Origin: Mobula hypostoma
Taxonomy: Eukaryota
Length of the DNA stretch: 64,000 bases
Direction: 5' to 3'
NCBI RefSeq assembly: GCF_963921235.1
Contig: NC_086107.1
Location: forward strand, 108,254,001-108,318,000
How positions within the stretch are numbered: position 1 is the stretch's first letter; each line of letters starts with the position of its first letter. This document shows, one piece after another, positions 3,511-60,289 of the stretch. Below the pieces are notes generated by a model. The model was not told where the DNA came from and searched no databases. It worked only from the letters and a program-made list of their open reading frames with translations. The position numbers and the translations under genes were made by a program.

Positions 3511-4700
3511 ATGTGGGTGGAAACCAGAGCACCCAGAGGAAACCCACATGGTCACGGGGAGAACGTACAAACTTCCTACAGACGGTGGGGGAATTGAACC
3601 TGCGTCGCTGGCGGCGTAATAGCATTACACTAGCCATGCCAGCCCGTCCGTTCCTCAACAATTGTGGGACCAGTAAAGAATGAGCAAGAACGGAATGATC
3701 CTGCCCGCGACCCCGTCAGGAATTGACTCGCCCACATCTCTGAAGCAATTCTGGTTCTTCTGGCTATAATAGCAAGTGAGGAGATAAAACTTATTTGCAG
3801 GTAGTGGCTTGTGCTTTCCGAGATCAATAATAATTTGCTGCGATCATCTATGATTCATGATACATTAACGTTGTTGTCACGGTAATGGAAGTGGAACATT
3901 AATCCATCTCAGCTAAATCTAACTCTCTTTTCACAAGTACAGTGGTTAGAGGCAAATCCCTGTCAACTTCATTCAAACATAAAATCCCAATACCCAACAA
4001 TGATTGTGCTAATGACGTTATCTTAAACTTGATCATTTAATGAACCCCAAACAGCTCAGGTCGATTGATGTTGCCAGTCCTATTTTAGCATGTTGGAGAG
4101 AGTGGCAAAACTAGATTTCTCTAGGAATGTGATTCCGTTCTTTAAGCTCCTCGGGGAAGTGCAGTTCCAGCCTCTGAATTCCTTCTTTAGAATCAGAATC
4201 AAGTTTAGTATCACCGGCATATTTCATGAAATTTGTTGACTTTGGGGCAGCAGTACAATGCAATACATAATAATAGAAAAAAATCTATTATTTTTTGCAG
4301 TAAGTTGTATTGCAGTAAGTATATATATTGCAGTAAGTATATATATAATAGTTAAATTAAATAAGCAGTGCAAAAGCTGAAACTTGGGAAAAAAACTGAG
4401 GTTCAATGTCCATTCAGAAATCTGATCGCAGAGGGGAAGAAGCTATTCCTGAATCACTGAGTGTTTGTCTTCGGGCTCCTATACCTCCTTCCTGATGGTA
4501 GCAATGAGAAGAGGGCATGACTTGGGTGATGGGGATCCTTAATGATGGATGCCGCCCATTTGAGACACCACTTCTTGAAGATGGCCTGGATACCGTGGAG
4601 GGCAGTGCCCACGATGGAGCTGACTATGTTTACAACTCTCTGCATCTTACTTTGATCCTGTGCAGTAGCCCCATTCCCGTACCAGATGGTGATGCAGCCA

Positions 4701-4965
4701 ACACACACAAAAAATGCTGGTGGAACGCAGCAGGCCAGGCAGCATCTATAGGAAGAGGTACAGTCAATGTTTCGGGCTGGGACCCTTTCTTCAGGACTAA
4801 CTGAAAGAAGAGATCTCTTCTTTCAAGTTAGTCCTGATGAAGGGTCCTGGCCCGAAACGTCAACTGTACCTCTTCCTATAGATGCTGCCTGGCCTGCTGC
4901 GTTCCACCAGCATTTTTTGTGTGTGTTCTTTGAATTTCCAGCATCTGCAGATTTCCTCGTGTTCA
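4701..4965. mobile_element. Penelope-like (family A) inverted terminal-repeat cassette with two hammerhead motifs and a 9-bp TSD
   Basis: Arms about 4702-4813 and 4814-4927 are reverse complements around GAAAGAAGAGA|TCTCTTCTTTC; ATGCAGCCA is duplicated at 4692-4700 and 4966-4974. Confidence 0.8.
4829..4866 (+). ncRNA. Minimal type I hammerhead ribozyme motif (Penelope-type)
   Basis: TAGTC-CTGATGA-A-GGG-tcctgg-CCC-GAAA-CGTC-AACTG: CUGANGA and GAAA core, stem II, ACGU palindromic stem III, GUC site; one stem I mismatch. Confidence 0.7.
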
Positions 4966-16715: not shown

Positions 16716-18559
16716 AATGGACAGCCAGTACCTTTTTCCTAGGTCAGTACTAGCCAATACACAAGGACATCAGATTAAGATAAGTGGAAGAAAGTTTAGG
16801 GGAGATGTCAGAGGTAGTTCTGTTACAGAGAAAGTGGTAAACATCTGGAACACACTGCCGGGAGCAGGGGATGGCGGGTAGATGTTAATATAATAGGGAC
16901 TTTTGAGAGATTTGTAGATTGGCACATGGAAAAAATGATGGGCAATGGACCTTGTAGGAGGGAGGTGTCAGATTGATTTTGGGGTTCATGTGTATAAAAA
17001 GACCAAATTTCATTACCTCTGTGTGTGATGATAAACCTGATTCTTATATGGGTCTTTGTTGTGGAATGAGAGTGGGAAGGGGGCAGGGAGAGGGGAATAA
17101 TGGTTGGGAAAAGGGGAAGTGAAAGGGTAGGGTGTGGCAAGCACCAAAGTGACCTTCTGTAATGATCAATAAACCAATTGTTTGGAATCAAATGACCTTG
17201 ACTGGTGTCTCAGGGCTGTGTGTGTCTGCACCCACGCCACCCCCTGCCCCTGGCACACCTTCTGTGCTACCTGTCCCAAATCCCTCCTGCCGTACTCCAT
17301 CCTCACCTTTCCACAACATAGCATAGTGGACCAAAGGGTCTGCACTGTACTGTACTGCTCTATGTTCTAGGGTCTAAACGTTTGTGATAACGAACCTGAT
17401 TCTATTTCTGATTTGGTTACAAATTTACTGACCTGAATAATGAATCTGGGACAGAACCAGGTTTAGATACACACACAAAAAATGCTGAAGTAACTCTGTG
17501 GGTAAGATAGTATCTATGGAGGGAAATGGGCAGTTGATTTTTTTAGGTTGGGACCCTTCACCTGGACATGTGCCGTTTAGAGATGTTGACTGTCAATTTT
17601 CCACCACAGATGCTACCTGTCCCATTGAGCTCCTCCAGTGTTTTGTGTGTTGCTCCAGACTCTAGTCGTTTGTGTCTTGAGGTTTGCATATACAACATAG
17701 AATATAGTCGCACAAACCATTTGGCCCCCAATGTTATGTCTGTTAGGGCGTATTCTGGAGTTATACAATATAGTAAATGTTAATTTCAACAGCAATCAGT
17801 CTTCAGATTTGAATGTGGATGGCAGATTGAGTTTAAAATGCAGCTTAGAACAATGGTCTTCCTAGAGCTCCAGACTGGGGTCAATTGCAAACCAAGAAAT
17901 GCCAATTCACCTGAGATGTCTGCAAATGCATGAATGCAACTCAGAGACGGAGGTGACTAACACTCATCTTAGGTGCGTTGGTGTGAAGATCTAGGTGTCT
18001 GAAATCACGTGCAACTCAAAGTAAGCATTATGAATGCATTGTAACTACAGAAACTGTTCTGTTGTTACCCTTGTTCTTTAACATATAAAATGTGATGTAA
18101 TATTAAGTCAGGGAGCCTCTTCTTCCAAGTGTGTCTCCAGTATGCTGCCTGCTTGATATGCAGAATAAAGACTTTTTCACCAGGTTCAGTGTCTCCTGAT
18201 GACTTTGATCACAATCACAACAGTGCTGACTATTTAATCTGCAATAAGGTCAATCTAACAGTTTTCTCCTATATGGCCATATGGCCCTCCATCTTTACTA
18301 TCATTTATGAGCTTATATAAGAGTTTTTTAAATGTCGCCTAATGTATCTGCCTTTACCACCATCCCTGGCAGCTTGTTCTACACACCCACCACTCTGTTT
18401 AATAAAAGGTTTAAAGAATCCTTCGAACCCCTATTATACTAGCCCCAGATGGCTGTGCTTTATGGTTAACTGCTTTGAAATGTGCCTTCTCTTTCTGGAA
18501 TGCACCTCGAGGCACCACGGTAACACAGCGGTTAGTGAGATGCTATTACAGCTCGGGGC

Positions 18560-20174: not shown

Positions 20175-20740
20175 GTTGTGACAATAATCAACCAGTATCT
20201 CCAATACCTCTCTGGGGGAAGAAATCTGTGACCCTTAGAGATTGTAATCCCTGGTCCAAAGTCAAAGTCAAGTCAAAGTAAATTTATTATCGAAGTACAT
20301 ATACAACCATATACAACCCTGAGAGTCATTTACTTGCAGGCATTTACAAGAAAGTAAAGAAATTCAATAGAAATAATTTTTTTTATTTACATAAACAAGG
20401 ACTGACAAACAACGAATGTGCAAAAAAGATAAACTGTGCAAAGGAAACAACTCTGAAAATCTGTTGTCGAGACCTTGAAAGTGAGTATGTAGGTTGTGGA
20501 ACCAATTCAGATTTGAGGTGAGTGAAGTTACCCAAGCTACTTACTTATTTAATTTAATTACTTATATATACCTACTGTAATACACAGGTTTTTTTTCCTT
20601 GTTATTATTATGTATTGCATCGTACTGCTGCAGCAAAGTTAACAAATTCCACGACAAATGCTGATGATATTAAACCTGGTTCTGATTGAAAGTGAGTCCA
20701 GTTCACTGATGGGGTGACTGAAGTTGAGCGAGGATACCCC

Positions 20741-21018
20741 CACACAACACACATAAAAGTTGCTGGTGAACGCAGCAGGACAGGCAGCACCTATAGGAAG
20801 AGGTAGAGTCGACGTTTCGGGCCGAGACCCTTTGTCGGGAATAACTGAAAGAAGAGAGTACTTTCAAATCTCTTACTAACTCTTCTTTCAGTTCGTCCTG
20901 ACGAAGGGTCTTGGCTCGAAACGTCCTAGAGATGCTGCCTGGCCTGCTGCGTTCAACAGCAACTTTTATGTGTATTGCCTGATATTCCAGCATCTGCAGG
21001 ATATCCTCGTGTTTGCAA
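20741..21018. mobile_element. Second Penelope-like (family A) inverted cassette with two hammerhead motifs
   Basis: Same layout as 4701-4965; plus arm has CTGACGA-AGGG-tcttgg-CTC-GAAACGTC; imperfect TSD GATA(T)CCCC. Confidence 0.75.
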
Positions 21019-21807: not shown

Positions 21808-23175
21808 AGTACAGTACTGAGGGAGTGGGACACTGCTGATGGGTCATTACTGAGGGGGTGCCGCACTGTCGGAGGGACAGTACTGAGGGAGTGTCTCACT
21901 GTCAGAGGGACAGTACTGAGGGAGTGCCGCACTGTCGGAGGGACAGTACTGAGGGATTGTCTCACTATCGGAGGGACAGTACTGAGGGAGTGTCACACTG
22001 TCAGAGGGATAGTACTGAGGGAGTGTCACACTGTCGGAGGGACAGTACCGAGGGAGTGTCACACTGTCAGAGGGACAGTACTGAGGGAGTGTCACACTGT
22101 CAGAGGGACAGTACTGAGGGAGTGTCACACTGTCAGAGGGACAGTACTGAGAGAGTGTCTCAGTGTCGGAGGGACAGTACTGAGGGAGCATCACACTGTC
22201 GGAGGTACAGTACTGAGGGAGTGGGACACTGCTGATGGGTCATTACTGAGGGAGTGCCGCACTGTCAGAGGGACAGTACTGAGGGAGTGTCTCACTGTCA
22301 GAGGGACAGTACTGAGGGAGTGTCACACTGTCGGAGGGACAGTACTGAGGGAGTGTCACACTGTCAGAGGGACAGTACTGAGGGAGTGTCACACTGCCAG
22401 AGGGACAGTACTGAGGGAGTGTCACACTGTCAGAGGGACGGTACTGAGGGAGTGTCACACTGTCAGAGGGACAGTACTGAGGGAGTATCACACTGTCAGA
22501 GGGACAGTACTGAGGGAGTGTCACACTGCCAGAGGGACAGTACTGAGGGAGTGTCACACTGTCAGAGGGACAGTACCGACGGAGTGTCTCACTGTCAGAG
22601 GGACGGTACTGAGGGAGTGTCTCACTGTCAGAGGGACAGTACTGAGGGAGTGTCTCACTGTCAGAGGGACAGTACTGAGGGAGTGTAACACTGTCAGAGG
22701 GACAGTACCGACGGAGTGTCTCACTGTCGGAGGAACAGTACTGAGGGAGTGTCTCACTGTCGGAGGGACAGTACCAAGGGAGTGCCTCACCGTCGGAGGG
22801 ACGGTACCGAAGGGGTGCCGCACTGTCAGAGGGACGGTACTGAGGGAGTGTCTCACTGTCAGAGGGACGGTACTGAGGGAGTGTCTCACTGTCAGAGGGA
22901 CAGTACTGAGGGAGTGTAACACTGTAAGAGGGACAGTACCGACGGAGTGTCTCACTGTCGGAGGAACAGTACTGAGGGAGTGTCTCACTGTCGGAGGGAC
23001 AGTACCAAGGGAGTGTCACACTGTCGGAGGGACAGTACCGAGGGAGTGTCTCACTGTCAGAGGGACGGTACTGAGGGAGTGTCTCACTGTCAGAGGGACG
23101 GTACTGAGGGAGTATCGCATCATCGGAGGGACGGTACCGAGGGAGAGCCTCAACGTCGGAGGGACGGTACCGACT
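21808..23175. repeat. 33-bp minisatellite, about 41 units, with higher-order structure
   Basis: Unit GGGACAGTACTGAGGGAGTGTCACACTGTCAGA; gives 11-aa periodic ORFs on both strands. Confidence 0.95.
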
Positions 23176-25514
23176 GAGTGTGAAAAAGATAACATACTGT
23201 ACAAATGCTAAAAGACATAAAAATCATGGCATTAGCTCCTCCACCCACCGAGTGCACCCTGTCTACCAACCACACTTCTGCACTAATACTACACTAACCC
23301 CTGTTTTTATTGGAGGGACAGTAGATTGACGATCATTGGCGCTGGAAAGTGATTGTGCAAATTGCTATGCTACCATGCTGCTGCAGTGCATGGATAAAGG
23401 CAAATTTAGGGACTGGGAAGAGTTTTTCAGTGGTTACTGAGTTGGTGAAGTGCGAGTCTATCATAACTCAAGTTACTGAGATGGAAGGAACCAGTAATCA
23501 GGAAGGGTAACGAGAGAGAGAGATCGACTGGAATAGTGGAACGAGCTGCCAGTGCAAGTCCTGCCTGCAGATTCAATTTCAATGTTTAAGAGAAGTTTGG
23601 ATAGGTACATGGATGGTAGGGGTATGGAGGGTTATGGTCTTAGTGCAGGTAAATAGAAGTAGGCAACTGAAATGCTTTGGCATGGACTAGATGGGCCAAA
23701 GGGCCTGTTTCTGTGCTGTACTTTTCTCTGACTCTAAATAGGGAGAGGTGAGGAGTGAGTATCTGCAGAAGCCAGCAATCTCCACTGCCTGTTCTAGAGT
23801 CTTGAAATGTTCAGTGGCTGACTGAACCTGCTATCTTTAGTCTGCAATTTCAAAAATAATCTTTCAGGGCTGTGACATTTAAGATGTGTTTATTTTTGTA
23901 GTTTCATAATTTTGCTTATTTGAGGCATTACACACTCAAACCAGCCGGGGAAAGGAGCAGGGGAAATCGAAACCATTGGATCATCTTTATTCTTCTCCGG
24001 ACCGTGCTTAACTCCTCGTGGCCAGTGAACTGCTCAGACGTAAACATCAGCCTCTGAGATTATTTCTGGATCTCAGAATGGTCATTGATTATTGAAGCAG
24101 GTCCGCAAAACAGTTCAATTATTGTTTTTGAGGAATACACAATGGTTAATGTGCAGAAGGAAGACATTCAGTCCATCAAGTCTATGCTGGATTTGTGTAC
24201 GAGAAGCTCAGCAAGTCTCACTCCTGGTGAAGGGTCTCAGCCTGAAGCGTCAACTGTTCATTCCCTTCCATTGGTGCTGCCTGACTTGCTGAGGTCCTCC
24301 AGCATTTTGTGAAGGTTGGTCAAGTATCTACTGTATTTAAGTCCCATACCCTCTCATTCTCCCTATTGTTCGTTCATTATGTGCCATGTCATGACATAGG
24401 GGATCGTGATTTTTCCATGACTATGATTGTTCTTGGCAAATTTTACGGCAGAAGTGGTTTGCCATTGTCCTTTTCTGTGCAGTCATCTTTACAAGACGGG
24501 TGACTCCAGCCGTTATCAATACCCTTCAGACGTTGTCTGCCTGGCATTAGTGGTCACATAACCAGGACTTGTGATATGCACCAGCTGCTCATACGACCAT
24601 ACACCACCTGTTCCCATGGCTTCACATGACTCTGATCGGGGGGGATAAGCAGGTTCTACACCTTGTCCAAGGGTGACCTGCAGGCTAGTGGAGGGAAGGA
24701 GTGCCTTACACCTCCTTTGGTAGAGACGTATCTCTGCCCCACCACTGCATTCTTCCCATAACCTTGAAAACCTTTCAGTTGTTTATTCGGTCACTTCACT
24801 CAGCAATACATTTCAGACCCTATGTCTTTTGTAGAATAGTTTACCACTGATGGTTATTTTGCCAAATGTGCTGATTCATTTTTTGGATCTTGACAGATCC
24901 ACTAAAGGGAATTGTGTTTCTCTATCCCTGGTCTTGTTGCTATGGATAAAATCACGGCAACAAGATAGGGGATAGAGAAAGATTATTCTCTTTAGTGGAC
25001 CCCTCGCACATCTTCTTGCGACCTTCTCTATCGTCAGCCAAAGAACTCCAATTTCGCAAATCTATCCACATAATTCAAGTCCTACTTCCATGAAGTTATT
25101 TTGGTAAATCTCTTCTGAAAACTTTCTAAAATACTTCAAAGATTACATCCCTTATTTCACCTTGATGCTTTGCTAACATTTCCCCCACAATCTTCAAACT
25201 TTAGAAGCAGTGAGAACTGTCACAGACCAAGGACATGTTGATGTACTGCGGTATGGGAAACGGATCGCAGATTTCCTAAAGTCTCCCACCCGGAATATGG
25301 GCAATGCTCCAGTCGTAGCTAAACCAGACAAGCACTTGAATGGTCAAGGCATAGGTTCCTTGGCTCAAATCCTACACCAGCATGGTAGTGTAATGGTTAG
25401 CAGAACACTATTGCAGCTCCAGTGACCCAGGTTCAATTCCCGCCACTGCCTGTAAAGAAATTGTATGTTCTCCCTGTGACCACGTGGCTTTTCTTTGGGT
25501 TTCAAATTCTAAAG

Positions 25515-45040: not shown

Positions 45041-48000
45041 ATCACAGGGTCTAGCTAAAGCAGATCTGAAATGTTGAGTGCTGTGGGCTGGGACCCCTTT
45101 GAATTACTCTGGAGCAGACCATGTCTGCTCTCCTCTGGTATGAGTGGACAACGCTGCTGCAGGTCACAGCATGCGTAGCAAAAGCCATACACAGCACACC
45201 ACAGCACATGTCTGGGATACTCCATCAAGGAGAGCGAAGGAAATGCATTGACTTCACAGAATGTCTAAAACATCTCAGTTCATTTAGAATTATGGAGTAA
45301 AACAGCACAGAAACAGCCCCTTCGGCCCAACTCACCCATACTAAATAAGCTATTCCCATTTGCCCATGTTTGGCCCATATACTGCTACATCTTTTCTATC
45401 CATGTACCTGCCTATGTATCTTTTAAATATTGCTTAAGTATTGCCTCCTCTGGCAGTTCGTTCCATTACATACCACCCTCCATGTGAAGATGCCCCTTTT
45501 TTCTCTTTTCAATCTTTCCTCTCTCACTTTAAATCTCTTGAGATACAGCGCACAGTAGGTCCATCCTGCCCCTCGCGCTGAACTGCCCCGCAATCCCCCA
45601 ATTTAACCATCGCCCAATCACTGGACACTTTGCAAAGACCAATTAGCCTATCAACCAGCACATCTTTGGACTTTGGGAGGAAACCGGAGCACCCGGAGGA
45701 ATCCCACGCGGTCACGGGGACAACGTACAGACTCCTTACAGGCAGCGGCGGGAATTGAACCTCGGTCACTGGTACTGTAAGTCGTTGTGTGAAACACCTT
45801 GCTACTACGCAGTCATGAAAACTCTGAACTTATTCCACATCCTGCAAACTTTCTTCCAAGGACTCTGCAATTCGTGCTCTCAGTAGTATTAATTTATTTT
45901 CACAATTTGTCTTCTTTTGCACATTGGTTGTTTGTCAATCTTTATTTATGCAGTTTTTCATAAGTTCTATTGTATTTCTTTATTTTGCTGTAAACACCTG
46001 CAAGTAAATGAGTCTCAAGGTAGTATTGAGTAACACATACATACTTTGATATAAATTTACTTTGACTTTGACTATGGCCTTTAGTTATTTTTTTTATTCC
46101 CTTTCCCTGCATAAAAGATTATGTGCATTCATCCTATTCCTTCAAGACGACTGCAACCTTGTTATGGTTTGGAGGCTTGCGTCCCTCAATGACCTGGAGA
46201 ATTATGTTGGCCGGAGTCAGAGGTTTATGCTTTAGTCTGTGGTAGGGTCACCCATGCCAAACAGGCCAAAGGGTAGAGGCCAGACTAAGAGTGGTCCACC
46301 AGTCCTCCAGGTTCGGGGGTTAACAACCCTGACTGGTCAAACAAAATTGTTATGGAAACGACAATGAAGAATCCTTCTACATCTGAGTGCGATGGTATTC
46401 CTGAGTCTCCACCCACGACTGACTGTAGTGAAAACCGAGAGGAAGCTACTGACATGATGAAGGAAGCCCTGAACACTGCCAAAGATGGAGGACCTCCATT
46501 ACTACCCTAAACGCCAGCGGCGTAACGGATAGCAAGAAGATTCATCCCACCCATGCTTCTCATGATTTTAGACACCTTAATAAGGTCAGTATACCCCACT
46601 ATAATTATTTGATGCTTAATTCTCCTCAGAAGTTCTGCCGGGTAGCATGAGTGAAGATTCACAGAGAAATCATATAGGCCTAGAGACTGCAGGAGTTCAA
46701 GGCCAATGTGAACCATCTCCAACGTTTCTGGTTCTGATGAAAAGTCATCAAATTGAAATGCTAATGCATCGTAGGCATGCTGCTTTAGTGCTACAACTTG
46801 CGGGCTGCCCCCAGAAATCCTTCGTTTGTGTTGGTTGTTAACGCAAATGGTGCATGTCACTGAATACTTCAATGTATATGTGATAAATCAACCTAATCTG
46901 ATGTAATAGTGTTTTCTCTGTGAACATTTCCTGACTCGACAAGTGCTTTCCATTGGAAATTCCCAGCAGCCACAGAATGTTGCTTTCATTAGAGGACATT
47001 GTTAGAATAGCAAAAAAAAAAACAGGGATCGATTATGAACCAAGTGGTCACGACATGCTGTTCATATTCACTGGTGAGTCAGCAGGCTGCAGTCTGACAT
47101 CAGAGCCATATATTTTAAGCTTGTCCTATTCTGCATATTTGAAGACAACAATCGAGATTGAAGCTCCCGTTGCAGTGTGAAGAGAGTGCTGCATTGTCAG
47201 AAGTGTTCTATTTTCAGATGGGACATTGAACTGAGAATCTGTAGCAGCTCCTGTGGCTGTGACCTGGACAAAAATATCTGAGTGTTTCTTCTGTCTCCAA
47301 GGAAAAGAATCCTACAAAAAGTAATGGATATGGCCCAGTCCATCACAGGTAAAGTCCTAACAACCATTAAGAAAATCTACGTGAAATGTTGTCGCAGTAA
47401 AGTAGCATCCATCATCAGGAACCCCCACCACCCAGGTCATGCTCTCTTCTTGCTGCTGTCATCAGGAAAGTGGTACAGGAGTCTCAGGACTCACGTCACC
47501 AGGTTCAGGAACAGTTATCACCCCTCAACCATCAGGCTCTTGGACTAGAATGGATAACTACACTCAACTTCTCTTGCCTCATTGAAATATTCCCACAACC
47601 AATAGACTCACTTTCAAGGACTCTTCATCTCATGTTCTCAACATTTATTGCTCATTTATTTATTGTTATTATTTCTTCTTTTTGCATTTTCACTGTTTGG
47701 TGTCTTCTGCTCTCTGGTTGAATAACTGAGCTGGGCGGCCTTTCATTGATTCTGTTATGGTTATTATTCTATAGATTTATTGGGTATGTCCAAAAGAAAA
47801 TGAATCTCACGGTTGTATATGGCCACACACACACACAAAACATATACTTTGAGGATAAAATTTGCTTTATACTTTGAACCTTAATCTTGAGAGTGGAAAG
47901 ATTTAAAAGGCACTTTTTCACGCAGAGGGTGGTGGGTAAATGGGAGGAGCTGCCAAAGAAAGCTGTAGACTATGGGTAGAATTACATCACGACATACGTC

Positions 48001-49909
48001 TGTGATAATAAACCCGATTCCGATCTTGAACTTTTCCCAGTTCTGATAAAAGGTCATTGAACTGAAAAATAACTCTGCTTCCATCTCCATGGATGCCGCC
48101 TGATTCACTGAGAATTTGGTGATTAATTCTCCGAAGAAAATTTATCTCACTCCCATCAGGGAGGAGGCTATGTAGCATCCACGCCAGGACCACCAGACTC
48201 CAAAACAGTTACTTTCTCCAGGCAGTACGGCTGATCAACACCTCCACCCACTAACCCATCCCTCCACAACCCCCACCACCACCACTTTATCATTTTCTGT
48301 CAGTCAACTTACATATAAACACTTTATGGACATACAATCAACCTGCTTTATATAAGCTATTTTATGTACTTATATTTATTGTGGTTTTTTTATTATTATT
48401 CTGTCCTTTATCTTTTTGTGCTGCATTGGATCCAAAGAAACAATTATTTCATCTCCTTCACATTTGTGCACTAGAAATGACATTAAATATTCTTGAAACT
48501 TGAATCTCAACAGATAAAATGTGTAAAGATTGATCTACGTTGCAGAAGAATCACATTGCCCCAGAGATTGCAGGAGATCAAGGACAAAGTGAATCATTCT
48601 GAACATTTCTTAGTTCAAGCATAGAACAGAAAACAGTACAACACAGTGCGGGTATATGGATGGGAAAGGTTCAGAGCAGTAGTTCACAACCTTTTATATG
48701 CTATGGACAAAAGGTTTGTGGACCCCCGGTTAGGAAGCCCAGGTCTATAGGGATATGAACCAAGCCCAGGCATATGGGACCTGCTCAGGTAGACATCTTG
48801 GTCAGCACAGTTGAGATGGGCTGAATGACCTGCTTCCATACTGTATAACTACAACTCTTGTGCAATTTGAATTAATTTTAAATCAAAATACTGAAATAAG
48901 GTCTGGAAGGGTTAATAAGGCCAGGCGTCATCTATGAATAAAGTAGAGAAAGCCTCTGAGGTGGTTGGCTTCTCAATAGAGTTCATCTGTCCACTGATAC
49001 TGCCTAACCTGCATCTTTTTTAATGTGACTAAATAATCAAATCATTTGGATCACTTTATCCACAAATTATTAACTGTTCACTGCTCAGAGGTACGTACAA
49101 GCTGGCTGCTGTGTTTACAGCAGTAGATAGACTGTCGTCACAAGCTCTGAATCTGAAGTGCCTTGGGCTGTTCTGAGGTTCTGAAAGCATGTAATACAAT
49201 TGGAAACACAAGGGATTCTGCAGGTGCCGGAGATCTTAAGCAACACACACACACACAACATGCTGGAGGAGCTCAACAGGTCAGGCAGCATCGATGAAGG
49301 GGAATAAACAGTCAATGTTTCGGGCCGAGACCCTTCATCAAGGCTGGATAGCAAGAGGGCAGAAGCCAGAACATGAAGATGGGAAGATGCGGGAGGAGGG
49401 AGAGGGAAGAAGTACAAGGTGTAGGTGAGGGGGAAGGTGGGTGGATGGGTAGAAGAGAAATGAAGCAAGAAACAGACAGGTGATAGGTGGATGAGGTCAA
49501 GGGCTGAAGAAGAAGGAATCTAATAGGAGAGGATAGTGGGCCGCGGAAGAGAGGATGGGCAGGTCAGGAGAAGGGGGAGGGGAGAAATTTCTGGAAGTTG
49601 GAGAAATCAATGCTCATGCTCTGAGGATAGAAGCTACATGGACAGAATGGAAATTGGAAAATGCTACAACTACTCAATAGGTCAGGTAGCATCTCCGAGT
49701 GGGAGATACAGAAGCAACATTGGTGACAGAATGAGAGGTTAGAGAGGCTTAATCCCAAAAAGGACCTGTGCAGAGAATTCAGATGGGTGTTATCTGGAAG
49801 AATAGGATCTCGCTTGGTATTTGTATTGGTTTATTATTGTCTCATGTAGGAAGAAACAGTGAAAAACTTTGTTTTGTGTTCCATCTGTATATTATGCCAT
49901 AAATACATA

Positions 49910-50493
49910 CACTCAGTGGCCACCTTATTAGGTTCCCTGTATACATGAATACCTGTACAACTGAATACCTGAACACCTGTACACCTGCTTGTTAATGCAA
50001 CTATCTAATCAGACTACAACATGGCAGCAACTCAATGCATCAAAGCGTGGTCGGTCGTTGTGCAGACCAAACATCAGAACGGGGAAGAAATGTGATTGAA
50101 GAGATCTCGACTGGGGAATGATTACTGGTGTTCGTTGGGGGCTGGGTGCGGGTTTGAGTATCTCAGAAACTACTGATCTCCGGGGATTTCCACACACAAC
50201 AGTCTCAAGAGTTTACAGAGAATGGTGTGAAAAACAAAACAAAAAATCCAGCGAACGGCAGTTCTGTGGGCGACGATGCTTTTTGTTAATGAGAGAGGTC
50301 AGAGGAGAATGACCAGACTGTTTCAACCTGACAGGAAGGCGATCGTAACTCAAATAACCTTGCATTATAGCAGTGGCATGCCAAGGAATGCTCAACGTGT
50401 CAAACATTAAAGTGGGTGGGCTACAGCAGCAGAAGACCACAAACGGTCACTTTCTAGGGTTCAGGAGGTAATTAATAAAATGGCCACTGAGTG
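49910..50493 (+). mobile_element. Tc1-like non-autonomous DNA transposon, copy 3, TA TSD
   Basis: ta|CACTCAGTGGCCAC...TGGCCACTGAGTG|ta. Confidence 0.85.
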
Positions 50494-51598
50494 TAACTTG
50501 TGGCAGTAGAAAGAGAAACAGATTGCAGAATATAATATTACAGATTCAGAGAAAGTGTAGAGCAGATAGACAGATGACATGCAAGGGAGACAAGATCTTA
50601 GGAGATGAAAGGCTCATTACTGTTTGAACAGAGGGAAAAACTGAAGATGCCGGAAATTCTCAGCAGGGGTTAGGCAGCACCTTTGACAAGATAAGAGTTA
50701 ATATTTCAGATGCATGGCCTATCATCAGTTCTGATCCAAATATTAGACAGAATCTCTGGTACCCCTCAGCACATCAGGCAGCATCTACTGCATGGAGACA
50801 GAAAGGGACGATCAATATTCTGGATGGAGCACCCCACCAGTCCAGATGAAGGGTCTCAACCCGAAACGTTGTCTGTCCGTTTCCCTCCACGGATGCTGCC
50901 TGACCCGCTGAACTCCTTCAGCATTTTGTGTGTTGCTCCAGATTCCAGTGTCTTCCGTCTCCTGTATCTGCCCAGCGCCCCTCCTCATTTTGTGATTAGT
51001 TTCCCAAAGAACTTTTACCAGGGAGTGCACAGGAGGGTTGCCCGACACCAAAGGATCTCTAGGCCAATGTGATTCATCCTCTAATGTAAATAGTAATGAT
51101 CGTATTGTACCAGTGCCACAAAACAACATATTTAACAATATATATTTTAGTGGTAATAAACCTGATTCTGATCTCGAACTTTTCCCAGTTCTGATGAAAG
51201 GTCATTGACGTGAAACAATAACTCTGTTTCTATCTCCAAGGATGTTGCCTGACTGGCTGACAAATTCTGGCGCTTCTAGTTTCTATTTCCGATTTCCGAC
51301 ATCTGCAGGATTTTTGAAATGCTAGAGAACAGGATTTTGCACTTTGGGTGAACGGTAGACAGCTATCTGTGGTTGGAATTCGTTCATTGCTGTCACATGT
51401 ACTGAGTACAATGAAAAGAACTTGTCTTGTACGGAGAAAGTACAGAGCAGGTAGAAAACCTAGTGCAAGATTGAAGTAGATTGTGACGTCAAAAGTTCAT
51501 CTTATCATACTAGGGTATCATTCAATAGTCTTACAACATCAGGGTAAAAGAGCATGGTGGTACATTACAAGACAAGGGCAAGGACTCTGCCAGCCTAC

Positions 51599-51893
51599 CG
51601 CACTTGTTCTGGCAGATGCTGAGGTCAGTGGGTGCCCGCCGTCTGCCCTGGCTCCTGGAGTGGAGGCTGGCATACAGCGCCGCCGTCCGCCGCTTGGCCT
51701 TGCGCAGGATGTGGCACACGTACTGGAAGATCTCCTCGTAGCAGTCGCCCGGCTCGGCAAAGCTGGCCAGCGTGCTGGTCGAGAAATAGAGGGCCCGCTG
51801 CTCCTGCATCAGCTGGTGCTCCCGCTGCTTCGTCTCCGAGAACTGCGTGGCTATGACGACCAGGCAGAGGTTAATCATGAAGAAGGAGCCCAC
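51599..51893 (-). CDS. CACNA1I: CACNA1I coding exon, 295 nt, IS6 and proximal I-II loop (gating brake) (about human exon 8)
   Basis: Acceptor cag|[72 protein letters not shown]...QNKC. Donor G|gtaggc (phase 1) fits the next exon, which starts GG. Confidence 0.93.
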
Positions 51894-53179
51894 CTGTGGA
51901 CAAGGAGCAGTGACTTAAGCAACTTGCTGGCTCAAAGAACAGATTGTGCAGACCAATATGCAGGAGCAGGTTCATAGGACATGCTGGTCCTTTGACGCAA
52001 CTTGCCCAACTAGTCTCACTCAACACACTTCACTTCAGCTTTCCTTTCCACTAACTTCTTTTAAAAATTATTGGCCAAATCAATTAGGGTCAAATCACTT
52101 TTGGACCAGACACTTCACAGCATAATCCGGCGTTCTTAATGTGGGAGACTCGGTTAGCACAATCCCTTTATAGTGCCAGTGATCACCGACCGGCATTCGA
52201 TTCTCACCACTGTCTGCAAGGAGTTCTCACCTCCTCCCCGCAACTGTGTGGGTTTCCTCCGGGTTCATCCTTGCACGTTCCAAACAGATATGGTTACAAT
52301 GGGTTTGCAAAGCTATGCTGGCGTCATTAGTGTGGCGATACTTCCGGGTTGCTCTCAGTGCAATCCTTGCGGATTTTATTCGACAGACACAATGCACCCC
52401 TCTGTATGTTTCAACGGGGATGTGACAAATAAAGCTAATATCTTAAAATTAATTTTTTTTCTGCTCCCACGCACTGGGGCACCAGCAGATGGTAATATTC
52501 TGCTGTCATCTCAGAGGACTAATCTTGATCCATCTTTATATCAACTCCTATACTGCCAACTCACTCAACTGCCTCCGGAGTGACGTGGACCTGCTCCAAT
52601 TCGCATATCGTCACCACAAGTCAACAACAGATACCATTTCATTGGCTCTCCACTGAGCTCCGGAACATCTGGGCAGTGAAGATGCATACATCAGGATGCT
52701 CTTCATTGACCAAAACTCCGAATTCAACACAATCATCCCCCCCAAAACTTACGAGTAAGCTCCTAGACCAGGGTCTTGATACCTTCTGGTCTAACTGGAT
52801 CCTTCACTTCCTCACTTGCAGACCCTAGTCCATTCAGATTGGCAACAGCATTTCTTCCACAATCACAATCAGCACATGTGCACCACAAGGCTGTGTGCTT
52901 ACCCCCCCCCCCCGCTCTACTCACTTTATACTTATGATTGTGTGGCTAAGTAACTTTGAACTTATTTGTTTCCCCATCAACCTTTCTGTGCCTTGCACCA
53001 TCCACCCTCCAATAGTATATAACTTACGTATATGAAAACTTATATAACATATATGAGATTTAGTTTCTTGCAGGTATTTATCAGAAAATAAAGAAATACA
53101 ATGTAATTAAGGAAAAAATCTGTAAAATAAATAAAGACAGAAAAGCAACCAATCAACCAAATTGTGTAAAATGATATAT

Positions 53180-53480
53180 ACGTTAGGAAATATGGTGAAT
53201 ATTGGTAGCTCATATTGAGGGAGTTGTTGTGGTGTTTGATGAGATTAGCATTTAGCTTGCAGACATTCCATCTGCAGTCGAGGTGACATTCTCAGTACAC
53301 ACTTGTTGCTGTTTCTTTCTGAGAGTGCTCGCGTTTATATAGGGCCCCCGTTTACTTGCCTCGGTCCTGATCGGCTACCCCTTTAGGTGACCTTTGAATT
53401 TTGTTGGCTCATCTTTCTTCGGCTCTTAGGGGTTCGTAGATGGAGTCTATGTCAATATATTTGTTGATGGAGTTAACAAA
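53180..53480 (-). mobile_element. Penelope-like (family B) 3' fragment
   Basis: NSINKYIDIDSIYEPLRA; reverse complement of about 56590-56830. Confidence 0.7.
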
Positions 53481-53994
53481 GTGTACAGGGACATCTCTAG
53501 CTGTACTGGCTTCCTCCCATATCCCTAACTCTGTTGTAAGTAAATTGCCCTTTGGACCAGGATGGGTTGTTGCCTTGCAGAGAGAAAGTGGAGATATTCT
53601 CAGAGTTCTTGTGTTGATGTCAACATCAACATCTTTTGCTGTTTTAAGTCGGTATAGAGAGGGACCCCCACTCACATCGGAGGCTTGGTAGGGCATGCAG
53701 AGACACAGTACAGGAGGAAGCCTGTGGTTTCCACACTGTCTTTTTGAAAGACAACATTGGATTAAACCATTCCATGCATCTCAGATCTTACATCAGAGGG
53801 TTTAACATTTCCTCTCGGCTCGGTGTGGGAATCTGCAGCCCTGTTTTCACTTCTGAGTGGGTATATTTTAATGTCAGGATAGCGCCCAGATATAGTATAA
53901 TTGCCTAATAATACAATCATAAATAACGTGCAGAAAATTACAATGATTTCCCGGAGGTCTTTGGTCTCTAACATGAGGCACACGTGCATATCAA

Positions 53995-54565
53995 AGAACA
54001 TAGAACATAGTACAGAGTGAAACAGAACAGGAACAGGCTCTCCGGCTCACAATCTTGACCGAACCAATTAAATTAGTGATCAAATGGCCAACTTAACTAA
54101 TCCCTTCTGCCTACACAATGGCCACATCCTTTAATTTTTCTCATATTCATGTGCCCATCTAAATGTCTTTTAAAAGTCTCCAATGTATCTGCTTCTGCCA
54201 CCATCCCAGGCAGTAGAGTCCAGGCCCTCACCACTCTCTGTGTTAAAAACTTGGCTCTTGCACCTCCTTCGAAATTATCCCCTCTCAGCTTAAATGCATG
54301 GCCTCTGGTGTTAGACATTTCAACCCTTCTCTATCTATGCCTCTCATAATCTTATAAATCTCTATCAGATCTCCCCGCAGCCTCTGCTTTTCCAGAGAAA
54401 ACAACCCAAGTTTGCCCAAACTCTTGCTCTCTAAGACAGGTAGCGTCCTGGTGAACCTCTTCTGCATCCTCTCCAAAGCTTCAACATCCTTCCTACAGTG
54501 GTGTGACCAGAACTGTACGCGTTACTCCAGATGTGGCCTGACTAAAGTTTCATGAAGTTGCAAGC
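53995..54565 (-). mobile_element. CR1 LINE 3' fragment
   Basis: ERMQKRFTR...LRGDLIEIYKIMRGID, TRGHAFKL. Confidence 0.8.
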
Positions 54566-54609
54566 TGAGTTGCACATGTGACCTCCATGTTAGTCACCTA
54601 CCAAGTGAT

Positions 54610-55375
54610 AAACACAAGAGATGCTGCAGATGCTGGAATTGCAGAGCACACAAAATGCTAGAGGAATTCAGCAGGTCAGGCAGCATCTACGGAGAAGAAT
54701 AAACATTCGACGCTTTGGGCCAAGACCCCTTATCAAGGCCGGAAAGGATAGGGGAAGGAGCCAGAATAAGAAGGTGGGAGGAGGGGAAGGAGTACGAGAT
54801 GGTGAAGCCAGGTGAGGGGGGGAGGGTAGGTGAGCATGGAGCGAAGGTGAAGTGCGAAGGAGGGAGGTGATAGTAAAATGTAAAGGCCTGAAGAAGAAGG
54901 AATCTGACAGGACAGGAGTGGCCCGTGAGTTAAAGGGAAGAACAAGAAAATCTGCACATGTGGGAAATCCAAGCAACACACACACACACACACACAAAAT
55001 GCTGGAGGAACCCAGCAGGTCAGGCAGCACTTATGGGAAAGAGTAACCAGTCAACGTTTCGAACTGAAACCCTTCATCAGGACTGGAAAACCAAGATGAG
55101 AAGTTAGAGCAAGATGGCGGGGGGAGGGGAGGAAGAAGTGCAAGGTGGCAGGTGATAGGTGAAACCAGGAGAGGGGGAGGGGTGAGGTAAAGAGCTGAGA
55201 AGCTGATTGGTGAAGGAGATAAAGAGCTGGAGAAGGTGGAATCTGATAGGAGAGGACAGAAGAAAGGGAAGGGGGACGAGCACCAGAGGGAGGTGATGGG
55301 CAGGTAAGAAGATAAGGTGAGAGGGGAAAATGGGAATGAAGGAAGGGTGAAGGGTGGGGTGGGTCAATTACCATG
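54610..55375 (-). mobile_element. Tandem pair of Penelope-like (family A) 3' terminal repeats
   Basis: Two head-to-tail copies (about 54610-54940 and 54940-55375) of the terminal unit plus UTR. Confidence 0.7.
55048..55085 (-). ncRNA. Minimal type I hammerhead ribozyme motif with intact core, on the CACNA1I sense strand
   Basis: CAGTC-CTGATGA-A-GGG-tttcag-TTC-GAAA-CGTT-GACTG: perfect 5-bp stem I, stem II with G-C and G-U pairs, GUU site. Confidence 0.7.
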
Positions 55376-56359
55376 GCAATCCCACAGACCTCTTGCTTTA
55401 GGATATCAACAAAAGGTTTGGAATCCCTGCTGTAAAGGTTAGTGTTTAAAGCATATTCTTAATTACTCTTAAACTGAGTGGTTCTCTAGAATATTTCAGT
55501 AAGTATTTTAGAGTCAATGACCTGGAGTAGCTCAAAATATAGGAGAGAGCAGTTAAGGAAAGCAGATATTATTCTCTGATGAGCAGCAATGAGCCATCTG
55601 GGCTTTATAACTGTCTGGCAGTTTAAGTGGTCATTATTGCTAAGATTAGTTGCTGTTGCTCCAGGTTATAAACCTGAATTTAAATTCCACAGTTGCTGTG
55701 GTGGGTGTTGCCTGCTTGCGGCTGCCTGGTGGGGTGGCATTGGAGTCGGGTGCTTCGCCGGAGTGACGGGGATGGTGTGGCGCGGCATCCATGCCGAAGC
55801 CGGTGCTGCCCCCCAGTGGCTGCTCGGCAGAAGGCAAGCTGTATTGTGTTCGACTGCAGACTGTTGCAACATTCATGGACTCAGGGACTAGTACAAAATT
55901 TTTGTTGTGTGACCGTATTTTACTGATCTCTTATATGTGCCTTGTGCTGTGGATGACTGTTGATACTGTGTCTTGCACCTTGGCCCTGGAGTAAGGTTGT
56001 TTTGTCTGGCCATATTCATGGGTATTCATATATGGTACAATTAAACTCCGACTCTGTATAACCAGCAATTTAACTACAGGGGCACCACTATACTGAATGA
56101 GTGAACAGAGAACATAGAACAGTATGAGCTCTTCAGCCCACAATGTTGTGCCAACTATATAAATCTACACCAAGATCAATCTAACCTTTCCCTCTTACAT
56201 AGCCCATAACCCTCCATTTTTCTTATATCCAGCTAGAGTCTCTTCAATGTCCCTGTTATCAGCCTCTACCCCCAACCTCTACATTGAGTCTCAGGTACCC
56301 ACCGCTCCCTCTACAAGAACTTTAGTGTCGAAGATTAAGGGTAGTTCCAAGATAAGGTG

Positions 56360-56832
56360 CAGTTAGGATGTTGGTGAATATTGGTAGCTCAGGTTGAGGC
56401 GTTTGAAGTTGCAGTATTTGTCCAGCTTGGCAATTAACTTGGGAACACAAATTGCTGGTGCAGAGACACTGTTGCTGATCTAGGTACGTGAAGACCGAGA
56501 AGGACGCCACTTTTACTGGGACACCATGAAGGTTCTGGTGCAGGCAAATTCGAAACAAGCACAAGAATTTTCAGAAGCGTGGTTGTCGTCTGATAACTCC
56601 ATAAACAAACATATCGAAATAGATGCCATCTACGAACCCCCTAAGAGCCAAAGAAATGCAAGCCAATAGAATTCGAAGGTCAACTGAAGGGGTAGCCAAT
56701 CAGGACCAAGGCAAACAAATGGGAGCTATATAAGTGTGAGCAGTCTCAGAGAGAAACACCAACAACTGCGCACTGAAGATGCCATCTTGTCTGGTGAGCT
56801 AATTGCCAAGCTCGATGAACACCGCAACATCA
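56360..56832 (+). mobile_element. Penelope-like (family B) 3' fragment with a short inverted end
   Basis: EDREGRHFYWDTMKVLVQANSKQAQEFSEAWLSSDNSINKHIEIDAIYEP (GIY-YIG C-terminus); CTGAAGATG core remnant near 56772. Confidence 0.7.
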
Positions 56833-57907
56833 AAGGAGCAGTCATTTAAAACTGAGGGTGTAGAAATATCCTATCACAGAGAGTGATAACTCTCAGGAAT
56901 TCTCTGCTGTAGATAGTTATGGGGCTTGCTCATTAGAAGTATCTACAGTGGAGGTAAAAGATTGGGAATTGAGGGCTTTGGGGATCTGGAATAGAAGAGA
57001 ACTTGAGGCCAGAATAGATCAGCCATGATCATACTGAAAAGCAAGACAGGCTTGAGGGCTGAGCTGCCTCCTGCTTCTGTTTTCATGTTCTCTGTTGCTC
57101 AAAGGAGGGACTGCTGTTCGTTTCACCCAGAACAACTATATGCCTTTTCTGCGAGGGCCAGGCAGCATCTGTGGAAGAAAGTAAACAGTTGATGTTTCGG
57201 GCTGAGACTCTTCATCATGTCTCAGCCTGAAACGCCAACTGTTTATTCATTTCCATACCTGCTGCCTGACCTATTGAGTTCCTCTAGCATTTTGTGCTTG
57301 CTGCTTTGGATTTCCAGCATCTGCAGGTTTTCTGGTACATGCCTATTCTGCTGTTCAGGACTGGGAAATTCAAAGGCAAATTCCATCACTCACCTTCCAA
57401 ACACCTGGCCTCCTCCAGCTCCATGATACAAACTTCACCTGCCCCCCCCCCACCAACTGATCTCCAGCCTTCCATTCACCCCCATCTCCCTGATCAACTC
57501 TGAGCTCTTATACTTGATCATCAATCACTCCCAGCCTTCTCCAACACGTATGGAGAGAAACTGTTCCTGTTACGGGTCATACAGGCAATCTGGGAACCTC
57601 AACTTGATCAGGAGACAAATCTCAACCCTGCAACTTGGAAATCTGAATCAAAATTATTCAAAAATATAGAATAAAAAACAATATTGGTCTTGGTATACTG
57701 AGTACATGTTCTATTTGTTTTGCAAAAGTTTTAGTTCTTAAGGCGCAGTATAATTCACATGATTGTTCTCCGTTGGTATAATCTCCTTCCTCTACAACCA
57801 AGAGCAGGTGATACAATGTGGAAGTGTCTTTTTAAAGAGGGGCCCGCAGCAACAGCTACACAAGGCACATAGAGCTATAGGTTTCTTTACAACGTTGGAA
57901 TACTTAC

Positions 57908-58000
57908 AATGATTAGTAGGATAAAGTAAATGAAGTTGTAGAAGGAATGTGCGTCCATCACATAGTACATGATTTCAACCCAACCTTCCAGGGTGATAAC
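57908..58000 (-). CDS. CACNA1I: CACNA1I coding exon, 93 nt, domain I selectivity filter and start of IS6 (about human exon 7)
   Basis: Not in the ORF track. Acceptor ttttgacag|GTT; translates [31 protein letters not shown]; donor ATT|gtaagta; phase 0/0. Confidence 0.97.
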
Positions 58001-58065
58001 CTGTCAAAATATTAAGAGTGGGATTATCTTTGTTCATCACATGTACATCAAAGTATCAAAACATA

Positions 58066-58568
58066 CACTCAATGGCCAATTTATTAGGTTGCACTTGTAC
58101 ACCTGCTCGTTAATGCAAATATCTAATTGGCCAATCACATTGCAGCAACTCAATGCATAAAAGCATGCAGACATGCTCAAGAGGTTCAGTTGTTGTTCAG
58201 AACAAACATCAGTGACCTTGACAGTGGCAGGTTTGCTGGTGTCAGACGGGGTGGTTCGAGTATCGCAGAAACTGCTGATTTTCATGCACAACAGTCTCCA
58301 GAGATGAGAGAATGGTGTGAAAAGCAAAAAAAATCCAGTGAGCGGCAGTTCTGTGGGTGAAAACACTAATGAGAGAAGTCAGAGGAGAATGGCCAGACTG
58401 GTTCAAGCTGACAGGAAGGCGACAGTAACTCAAATAGCCATGTGTTACAACAGTGGTGTGCAGAAGAGCATCTCTGAATGCACAAGTTGATCCTTGAATT
58501 GGATGGGCTACAGCAGCAGAAGATCACACTGGGTTCCCCTCCTGTGCTTAATAACGTGGCCTCTGCAC
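58066..58568 (+). mobile_element. Tc1-like non-autonomous DNA transposon, copy 4
   Basis: TIR and HTH remnant; ends about 65 nt from the exon acceptor at 58001. Confidence 0.8.
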
Positions 58569-58879
58569 ATATGTCATTTATGTCAACGATCAACACAGTC
58601 CGGAGATATGTTTGAGGCAGCCTGTAAGTGTTGCCATGTTTCTGGCACCAAAAAAGCATGCCCAAAACTTATTAACCTTAGCTTGTAAGTCTTTTTGGAA
58701 TGTGGGAGGAAACTGGAGTACCCAGAGGAAACTCACATGCCAAGAATGTACAAACTCCTTACAGAAAGCCACAGGAATTGGACCTCGATCAATTCTACAG
58801 CTGGTGGAGTAAAACGTTTAACTAACCCCTAAGCTACCAAGGAAAGCTATATTAACATCTAAGCTGTGTTACTTCCGTG

Positions 58880-59680
58880 GAGAAGAAGCTGAACATCAAC
58901 GACCCCTCCGTAGAGATCGTTAAGAGCACCAAATTTCTTGGTGTTCACCTGGCGGAGAATCTCACTTGGTCCCTCAGCACCAGCTCCATAGCAAAGAAAG
59001 TCCAGTAGCGTCTCTACTTTCGCAAAGGCTGAGAAAAGTCCATCCCCCACCCCCCCATCCTCACCACGTTCTACAGAGGTTGTACTGAGAGCATCCTGAG
59101 CAGCTGCATCACGGCCTGGTTCAGAAATTGCACCATCCCGGATCGCAAGGCCCTGCAGTGGATAGTGAGGTCAGCTGAGAAGATCATCGGGGTCTCTCTT
59201 CCCGCCATTACAGACATTTACACCACACGCTGCATCCGCAAAGCAAACAGCATTATGAAGGACCCCACGCACCCCTCATACAAACTCTTCTCCCTCCTGC
59301 CATCTGGGCAAAAGGCACCAAAGCATTCAGGCTCTCATGACCAGACTATGTAACAGTTTCTTCCCCCACGCCATCAGACTCCTCAATACCCAGAGCCTGG
59401 CTTGACACCAACCTACTGCCCTCTACTTTGCCTACTGTCTTGTTTATTATTTATGATTATTTATTGTAATGCCTGCACTGTTTTGTGCACTTTATGCAGT
59501 CCTGGATAGGTCTGTAGTCTAGTGTAGTTTTTGTGTTTTTTTCTTACATAGTTCAGTGTAGTTTTTGCATTGTTTCATGTAGCACCATGGTCCTGGAAAA
59601 GGTTGTCTCATTTCTACTATGTTCTGTACCAGCAGTTATGGTTGAAATGACAATAAAAAATGACTTTGACTTGACTTGAT
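58880..59680 (+). mobile_element. Rex1/L2-type LINE 3' fragment
   Basis: TKFLGVHL...RSAEKIIGVSLP...KDPTHPSYKLFSLLPSG; (ACTTG)n tail. Confidence 0.8.
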
Positions 59681-60289
59681 CTTCTGCAAACCCAGGTTAT
59701 TTATTGTCAGTGTGCCATAGAAGGAGGCCAATCGGCCCATTGTGAATTCTAGCAGAGCAATCTCATTGGTCCCAGTACGTACGTCTAACTCCTCTATTGT
59801 CTGGCAACTTATTCTCTCTCATGTGCTGATCAAATCCTCCCTCGGGTTCTTCTGACAGCCGCTGACACTACGGTAAACTGTAAACCAACCAGTTTGCCTC
59901 TGGAGTGTGGGAGAAAACAGCAGAATCCTGTATAAACCCAAACTGTAACCGGGAGAAAATCAAATTCCACACAGGCAGCATCAGAGCACAAGAGTGAACC
60001 TGCATCTCTGAGTTGAGATGCCTGCCACATCGCTTCACCACGTAAGCTGCATTGTGAGTTTTTGGAGAGGGAAACTCATTGGGGTGAGACTATCCAGATG
60101 GTCTAGGAGCTTGGAATCCCATCAGAGCAATTGAGGAAATTTCTTGTAGCACTGCTAACTTATTCTCTCCCACACGCCTATCACCCACCTACACTAGAGT
60201 TAACTCGCAGCTGCCAATTGATCTCCCAATACAGCACTGAGATGTGGGAGGAGACTGAGAGATCAGGCGCAAACTCACAGAGTTTGCCA

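What the first reader, a model, noticed from the sequence alone, without database searches (positions are those of the whole stretch)
55048..55085. Hammerhead ribozyme with intact core on the CACNA1I pre-mRNA strand
Seen: the minus strand reads CAGUC-CUGAUGA-A-GGG-uuucag-UUC-GAAA-CGUU-GACUG. All core nucleotides are present, stem I is perfect, and stem III is the loopless ACGU palindrome. It lies in the intron between the pore exon and the IS6 exon, with a degenerate tandem partner near 54705-54740. Known: Penelope-like elements carry such minimal type I hammerheads, which cleave mainly as dimers. Inference: it could cleave the channel pre-mRNA co-transcriptionally, possibly by pairing with another copy.
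Basis: partly seen in the sequence, partly recalled or inferred. Interest (0 to 1): 0.7.

Follow-up and report, generated by a model that had tools for sequence, protein, structure and literature searches.

The report
Decayed Penelope hammerhead in CACNA1I intron
This is a real but partly decayed copy of the tiny self-cutting RNA motif carried by Penelope-type jumping genes, one of about 17,500 similarly intact copies in this genome, and it likely does not cut or regulate the calcium-channel message whose intron it sits in.

Summary
The motif is real. At 55086-55047 (minus) lies a minimal type I hammerhead: full core, 6-bp stem I, loopless ACGU palindrome, on the sense strand of a 6,014-nt CACNA1I-like intron. 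It is the 3' pLTR end of a very abundant Penelope-like element: 21 family copies in the window and 17,523 genome matches to a pattern this copy also fits. Long siblings carry an RT plus GIY-YIG frame upstream. The tandem partner has lost G12, so a cis dimer is not expected to cut this copy. In the gene, copies show no strand bias (68 sense, 57 antisense), and five other sense copies are better preserved. No RNA data could be examined. Verdict: an ordinary member of a described class, likely neutral. The scan noted the same kind of repeat in at least 15 other genomes.

The parts
55047..55086 (-). Minimal type I hammerhead motif: 6-bp stem I, intact core, extra A between 9 and 10.1, weakened stem II (G-C, G-U, G-U), loopless ACGU palindrome, GUU site
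   Evidence: Sequence; column comparison; folding
55052..55053 (-). Predicted scissile bond, after U17 (family majority C17)
   Evidence: Hammerhead numbering applied; family majority
54943..55337 (-). 5'-truncated 3' end (pLTR) of a Penelope-like retroelement that contains the motif; no coding remnant at this copy. The 5' boundary may lie up to about 30 nt further upstream
   Evidence: Profile match E 6e-108; siblings with RT and GIY-YIG upstream
54614..54939 (-). Second, more diverged pLTR head-to-tail with the first; its hammerhead (54742-54703) has U3/A8, A12 and G15.1 and a mismatched stem I, but keeps a GUC site
   Evidence: 24% from the profile consensus against 8% for the focal copy (that consensus leans towards the focal copy)
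57219..57336 (+). Antisense family copy in the same intron, transcribed before the motif; predicted to pair with the focal pLTR, though it also forms a local hairpin with the copy at 57222-57156
   Evidence: duplex -140 kcal/mol, local fold -80 kcal/mol
57908..58000 (-). CACNA1I-like exon upstream (domain I pore helix end and start of S6)
51642..51893 (-). CACNA1I-like exon downstream (rest of domain I S6 and start of the I-II linker); its 3' end is approximate

Best explanation
The motif is the hammerhead in the 3' pLTR of a truncated Penelope-like retroelement that lies in a CACNA1I-like intron, and it is likely a neutrally decaying passenger that does not cut the pre-mRNA to any extent that matters. 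Shown: family membership, copy number, the changes in this copy, the broken partner, and the lack of strand bias in the gene. Inferred: in the active element two such motifs paired through the ACGU palindrome, probably helped by the element's protein, to process the element's RNA; this copy arrived as a 5'-truncated insertion and then took C-to-T and G-to-A changes. Its intact core is what its age predicts: 7 of 30 copies of similar divergence also keep all 13 core and palindrome letters. It likely cannot cut alone (no helix III), is a poor catalytic half (stem II), and has no working catalytic neighbour. Even a slow intronic cut would likely be tolerated by splicing.
For: 21 family copies in the window and 149 in 464 kb; 17,523 genome matches to a pattern this copy fits, control 0. 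A 509-aa frame with RVT_1 (E 1.1e-5) and GIY-YIG (E 4.9e-4), both under Pfam's curated cut-offs, is followed by the same pLTR family in L094. Against the majority of 75 copies from the region, the focal motif differs at 6 of 40 columns, including both stem II C positions and C17, but at only 2 of 46 well-conserved columns downstream: the motif is not better kept than its flank. Stem II hairpin energy +3.3 against -2.3 kcal/mol in 3 of 3 intact copies evaluated; G10.1-C11.1 probability 0.004 against a median 0.97 in 20 intact copies, same 50-nt frame. In the gene span: 68 sense against 57 antisense copies (p 0.37); 6 of 51 sense and 3 of 40 antisense motif-spanning copies as intact as this one (p 0.73); non-CpG core columns 87.6% conserved against 89.1% for control columns (p 0.34). 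Literature: a single min-HHR showed no cleavage and dimers were low (PMC4209133); an Anolis PLE hammerhead did not cleave without the element's protein and no RNA-seq ends mapped to its site (PMC11167929); 8 of 9 Xenopus dimer elements gave no product (bioRxiv 10.64898/2026.07.22.740005); hammerhead-cut introns were still spliced (as reviewed in PMC2995048).
Against: The core, palindrome and a 6-bp stem I are fully intact, and GUU is a cleavable triplet (PMC3138052), so the copy remains a possible substrate for an intact partner. Among 75 copies, 13 keep all 13 core letters against about 5 expected from independent columns (ratio 2.4); 11.5% of 2,000 matched control column sets reached that level, so the excess is not significant but points the other way. 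The insertion junction is bridged by contigs in 3 of 4 related organisms, so the insertion is old and fixed; the motif's letters in those orthologues could not be read. Folding models handle hammerhead junctions poorly: with longer flanks even intact copies lose stem I (median 0.004-0.06). The strand test covers one gene and has little power for intact copies. No RNA data were examined.
Confidence: 0.87

Rival explanations
1. Substrate-only cleavage: this copy supplies the GUU site, the palindrome and the stem I 3' strand, and an intact copy (an element transcript in trans, or a distant sense copy in the same pre-mRNA) supplies the core and cuts it at a low rate, probably when the element's protein is present. 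No benefit to the host is implied.
For: The parts needed on the substrate side are intact, and its decayed stem II would not matter in that role (inferred from dimer geometry). Intact copies are abundant; five other sense copies in the gene keep core, palindrome and GUC. A PLE hammerhead is protein-assisted in vitro (PMC11167929).
Against: Only a 4-bp and a 5- to 6-bp helix would join the two RNAs, in competition with each copy's own stem I; the nearest well-preserved sense copy is about 24 kb away. An antisense copy in the same intron is predicted to pair with the whole pLTR. The longest open frames among 150 scored endonuclease matches were 507-522 aa, and no full-length element was shown. 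No depletion of sense copies.
Confidence: 0.07
2. Cis heterodimer with the 54742-54703 neighbour: the focal core cuts the partner's GUC site (between 54709 and 54708), not its own GUU.
For: The two copies are head-to-tail, 344 nt apart; the required pairs are nested and possible: helix III with one G-U, and the partner keeps GUC.
Against: Needs the focal copy's weak stem II and a stem I with a G-A mismatch at the third pair; the constrained fold costs 18-22 kcal/mol in three sequence frames (no matched natural tandem control was run, and intact homodimers also score 8 kcal/mol above monomers, the focal one 14).
Confidence: 0.03
3. Domesticated intronic ribozyme that tunes CACNA1I output by cutting the pre-mRNA at GUU, like the CPEB3 or RECK intronic ribozymes.
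For: Sense orientation, intact core, perfect stem I; insertion shared with related organisms; conserved intronic hammerheads exist in amniotes (PMC6155905 passages).
Against: No helix III, no working partner, decayed stem II, C17 lost; the motif has more changes than its flank; it is one of 6 equally intact sense copies in this gene and of thousands in the genome.
Confidence: 0.03

Closest known systems
Minimal hammerheads (min-HHR) in pLTRs of metazoan Penelope-like elements (Cervera and De la Pena 2014, PMC4209133; fish Xena, Poseidon, Neptune; about 4,000 in coelacanth, 9,000 in Xenopus)
   Same: Type I, no helix III, palindromic 15.2-16.2, extra base between 9 and 10.1, G10.1-C11.1 pair, in the pLTR downstream of an RT-GIY-YIG frame, mostly solitary truncated copies
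   Different: Stem II here is short (3 Watson-Crick pairs in the family, one in this copy) where the S. mansoni families have 7-8 bp; copy number is higher (17,523 pattern matches); searches found no paper describing this cartilaginous-fish family
Poseidon element of Anolis carolinensis (PAc; PMC11167929)
   Same: Central RT, C-terminal GIY-YIG, hammerhead at the pLTR
   Different: PAc is expressed and its protein is active in vitro, with a protein-assisted hammerhead; this copy has no coding part. The clade of the present family (Poseidon or Neptune) was not determined
Non-LTR retrozymes of animals (PMC7229834 listing; bioRxiv 10.64898/2026.07.22.740005 passages)
   Same: PLE-related hammerhead repeats, reported in one chondrichthyan genome
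   Different: Retrozymes are tandem arrays of near-identical units; here two neighbours of very different divergence (8% and 24%) and no array
Conserved intronic ribozymes of amniotes (RECK, CTCL, DTNB hammerheads; CPEB3 HDV-like ribozyme)
   Same: Ribozyme motif on the sense strand of an intron
   Different: Those are described as conserved across species (PMC6155905) and, from recall, fold as complete monomers; this is a high-copy repeat with a minimal, decayed fold

Membership tests
PLE min-HHR | Conserved core CUGANGA, GAAA and UH | tested here: met
PLE min-HHR | No helix III; palindromic positions 15.1-16.1 | tested here: met
   ACGU at 55057-55054
PLE min-HHR | Unpaired base between 9 and 10.1 and a G10.1-C11.1 pair | tested here: met
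   A55073; G55072-C55061
PLE min-HHR | Stable helix II | tested here: not met
   This copy: 1 Watson-Crick + 2 G-U, +3.3 kcal/mol, pair probability 0.004. Met in intact siblings (-2.3 kcal/mol, 0.97). This lowers 'working ribozyme', not descent from the family
PLE min-HHR | Self-cleavage as a dimer | not testable with these tools
   Needs an in vitro assay; the adjacent partner lacks G12
Penelope-like element | Motif lies in the pLTR downstream of one RT plus GIY-YIG frame | tested here: met
   In siblings: L094 frame 253-1782 then pLTR 1892-2180; GIY-YIG remnant upstream of the closely related copy in L021. Pfam scores are under the curated cut-offs. The focal copy itself has no coding part
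Penelope-like element | Clade assignment (Poseidon or Neptune) by RT phylogeny | not tested
   No reference PLE proteins were at hand; the paper search returned 0
Rfam hammerhead families | Covariance-model match | tested here: not met
   No hammerhead family among the 7 matches up to E = 5 in 50000-60000
Non-LTR retrozyme | Tandem array of near-identical units | tested here: not met
   No tandem array at the locus; two neighbours at 76% identity over 99 nt
Domesticated intronic ribozyme | Orthologous motif conserved more than its flanks across species | tested here: inconclusive
   Junction bridged in 3 of 4 related organisms, but about 50,000 paralogous contigs per run hid the motif's letters
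Domesticated intronic ribozyme | Cleavage products in cell RNA | not tested
   No RNA run was laid on the locus

The most novel reading that the evidence does not exclude
Thousands of core-intact pLTR hammerheads in sense-strand introns, this one included, act as latent substrates: when the element's RNA and protein are expressed, they pair in trans through the ACGU palindrome and nick host pre-mRNAs genome-wide, CACNA1I at six or more places, so that a retroelement ribozyme network acts on host transcripts.
Probability: 0.04. Interest if true: 0.65.

Novelty: new member of a known kind. Interest (0 to 1): 0.1.

Why it matters
As found, little: it adds one more decayed copy to a described class. 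The useful side result is a measure of how harmless such motifs appear to be: about 17,500 core-intact copies in one genome and no loss of sense-strand copies in a 400-kb channel gene. If trans or protein-assisted cleavage of intronic copies were shown, it would give a new route by which a retroelement acts on host RNA and would bear on the open question of what PLE hammerheads do in cells.

Tried and rejected
Rfam scan: no hammerhead hit; the mir-789, mir-3926, MIR533 and MIR8706 hits at 57170-57257 are all far below gathering score and fall on a hairpin of two inverted pLTR ends. Free folding of the 40-mer gives stem I but an alternative inner pairing, z = -1.15. Laying four DNA runs was swamped by paralogues over the motif. 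One search had a one-column offset and its core test is void; one search is the corrected run. The independent-column expectation (0.069 against 0.19 observed) used unequal definitions and is superseded. A target-site duplication was looked for by eye only and none was called. Lunse et al. (dimer cleavage of PLE hammerheads) is not held; only its title was seen, in a reference list. One search fetched an unrelated paper. A chance match was rejected by the reversed-pattern control; a retrozyme array was rejected. Of 149 profile hits, 107 span the motif and entered one search's column tests (91 of them inside the gene); 75 that span motif plus downstream pLTR entered; the rest were dropped as too short.

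Full report
Observation. Two window exons match human alpha-1I best among solved structures, and tblastn with database proteins places the gene on the minus strand from about window position 241,000 to about -165,000, so the whole window is inside it. The motif lies in a 6,014-nt intron, 57907-51894, about 2.8 kb from the donor and 3.2 kb from the acceptor. The host is likely a cartilaginous fish; that rests on recall of the repeat and on earlier scan notes and was not tested.

What it belongs to. The motif is part of a 395-nt repeat (55337-54943). A profile built from 43 copies finds 21 copies in the window, 11 on + and 10 on -, and 149 in 464 kb; scaled up from this one region that would be about a million, a rough figure. 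A degenerate pattern that demands the core, the palindrome, three pairs of stem I and a pairable stem II, and that this copy fits, has 17,523 matches in the 3.48-Gb genome against 0 for the reversed control; one exact fully paired form has 76. Longer siblings carry endonuclease remnants just upstream, and in L094 a 509-aa frame with RVT_1 and GIY-YIG matches (both under Pfam's cut-offs) is followed by the same pLTR and motif. This is the layout of Penelope-like elements, whose pLTRs hold minimal hammerheads with exactly these marks: extra base after A9, G10.1-C11.1, palindromic 15.2-16.2 (PMC4209133, parts 1 and 2 of 4 of the text read).

State of this copy. Against the majority of 75 copies from the region it differs at 6 of 40 motif columns: both stem II C positions (to U), C17 (to U), two loop II letters and the outermost stem I letter; downstream it differs at 2 of 46 well-conserved columns. 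The C17 change sits in a CpG and fits ordinary methyl-C decay (inference). The stem II hairpin scores +3.3 kcal/mol against -2.3 in three intact copies; in a 50-nt frame the G10.1-C11.1 pair has probability 0.004 against a median of 0.97 in 20 intact copies, while stem I forms in both (0.87 and 0.99). With longer flanks stem I is lost in both groups, so these folds rank copies but do not predict activity. GUU is a cleavable triplet, with GUC and GUA the fastest (PMC3138052 passages).

The partner. In the dimer fold the two palindromes pair and the stem I strands swap, so each core acts on the other copy's site (inferred). The neighbour at 54742-54703 has U3 and A8 (a covariation reported in Schistosoma motifs), but A at G12 and G at A15.1; G12 is the general base (recalled). 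So the cis dimer is not expected to cut the focal GUU. Only the reverse is open, the focal core on the partner's GUC, through a weak stem II and a mismatched stem I, at a predicted cost of 18-22 kcal/mol without a matched control. The next sense copy with core letters is 4.4 kb away, beyond the next exon, and has a broken stem I; the nearest well-preserved one is about 24 kb away. An antisense copy earlier in the same intron is predicted to form a long duplex with the focal pLTR.

Is it selected? Inside the gene there are 68 sense and 57 antisense copies (p 0.37); 6 of 51 sense and 3 of 40 antisense motif-spanning copies are as intact as this one (p 0.73), and the other five sense copies keep GUC and two or three Watson-Crick pairs in stem II; non-CpG core columns are no better kept than control columns, 87.6% against 89.1% over 107 copies. 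Against my reading, 13 of 75 copies keep all 13 core and palindrome letters, 2.4 times the independent-column expectation; 11.5% of matched control sets do as well, and intactness falls with divergence (9, 4 and 0 of 25 by thirds), as a mix of young and old subfamilies would give. Among 30 copies of similar divergence, 7 are intact, so one intact sense copy in this window is expected. Contigs of 3 of 4 related organisms bridge the 5' junction, so the insertion predates those splits; the orthologous motif letters could not be read. No RNA was examined (one search listed no RNA holder).

What is known of activity. A single S. mansoni min-HHR did not cleave and dimers or trimers cleaved weakly. 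The Anolis PAc hammerhead cleaved only with the element's protein, and RNA-seq showed no ends at its site (PMC11167929 passages). One of nine Xenopus dimer elements cleaved (bioRxiv 10.64898/2026.07.22.740005 passages). [quoted passage not shown] Introns cut by a hammerhead were still spliced, whereas a fast HDV ribozyme blocked splicing (as summarised in PMC2995048 passages; the primary papers were not read). The CPEB3 case was seen as a search listing only. Supplements of PMC4209133, which list min-HHRs by species, were not read and might include a cartilaginous fish; searches found no paper on this family.

Verdict. Most likely (0.87) this is a neutrally decaying pLTR hammerhead. The best remaining route to a cut is as a substrate for an intact copy, perhaps with element protein (0.07). 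Earlier scan notes on other genomes reached like verdicts; I saw them after forming this reading and do not count them as support. New member of a known kind; interest 0.1.

Noticed in passing
G000:C45, window-relative 81,627 to at least 160,000 (loci L072-L080), inside a CACNA1I intron: A tandem array of at least 78 kb with a 32-bp period (about 2,450 copies, 75% matches, GC about 53%) fills most of a 114-kb intron and holds no pLTR copy where scanned.
   Followed up: partly
window 4695-4960, 17471-17655, 20740-21005, 57156-57336: Four back-to-back inverted pairs of pLTR ends; the last gives the sub-threshold microRNA-family hits.
   Followed up: partly
window 4814-4960 (+): An antisense-strand copy with intact core, palindrome, three Watson-Crick pairs in stem II and GUC: better preserved than the finding, apart from one stem I mismatch.
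   Followed up: partly
window 46734-46758 (+), 48023-48112 (+), 50733-50644 (-), 51166-51315 (+): A more divergent set of hammerhead-core repeats with a different stem II, perhaps an older PLE subfamily.
   Followed up: no
window 21811-23181: 33-bp minisatellite, 41.5 copies, 89% matches.
   Followed up: no
window 50002-50441 and 58120-58528: Two related dispersed repeat fragments about 8.1 kb apart, 80-93% alike in blocks; not identified.
   Followed up: no
L102, L103, L104: PLE frames of 507-522 aa with several pLTRs and inverted fragments close by; no full-length frame was seen in the four 6-kb stretches examined.
   Followed up: partly
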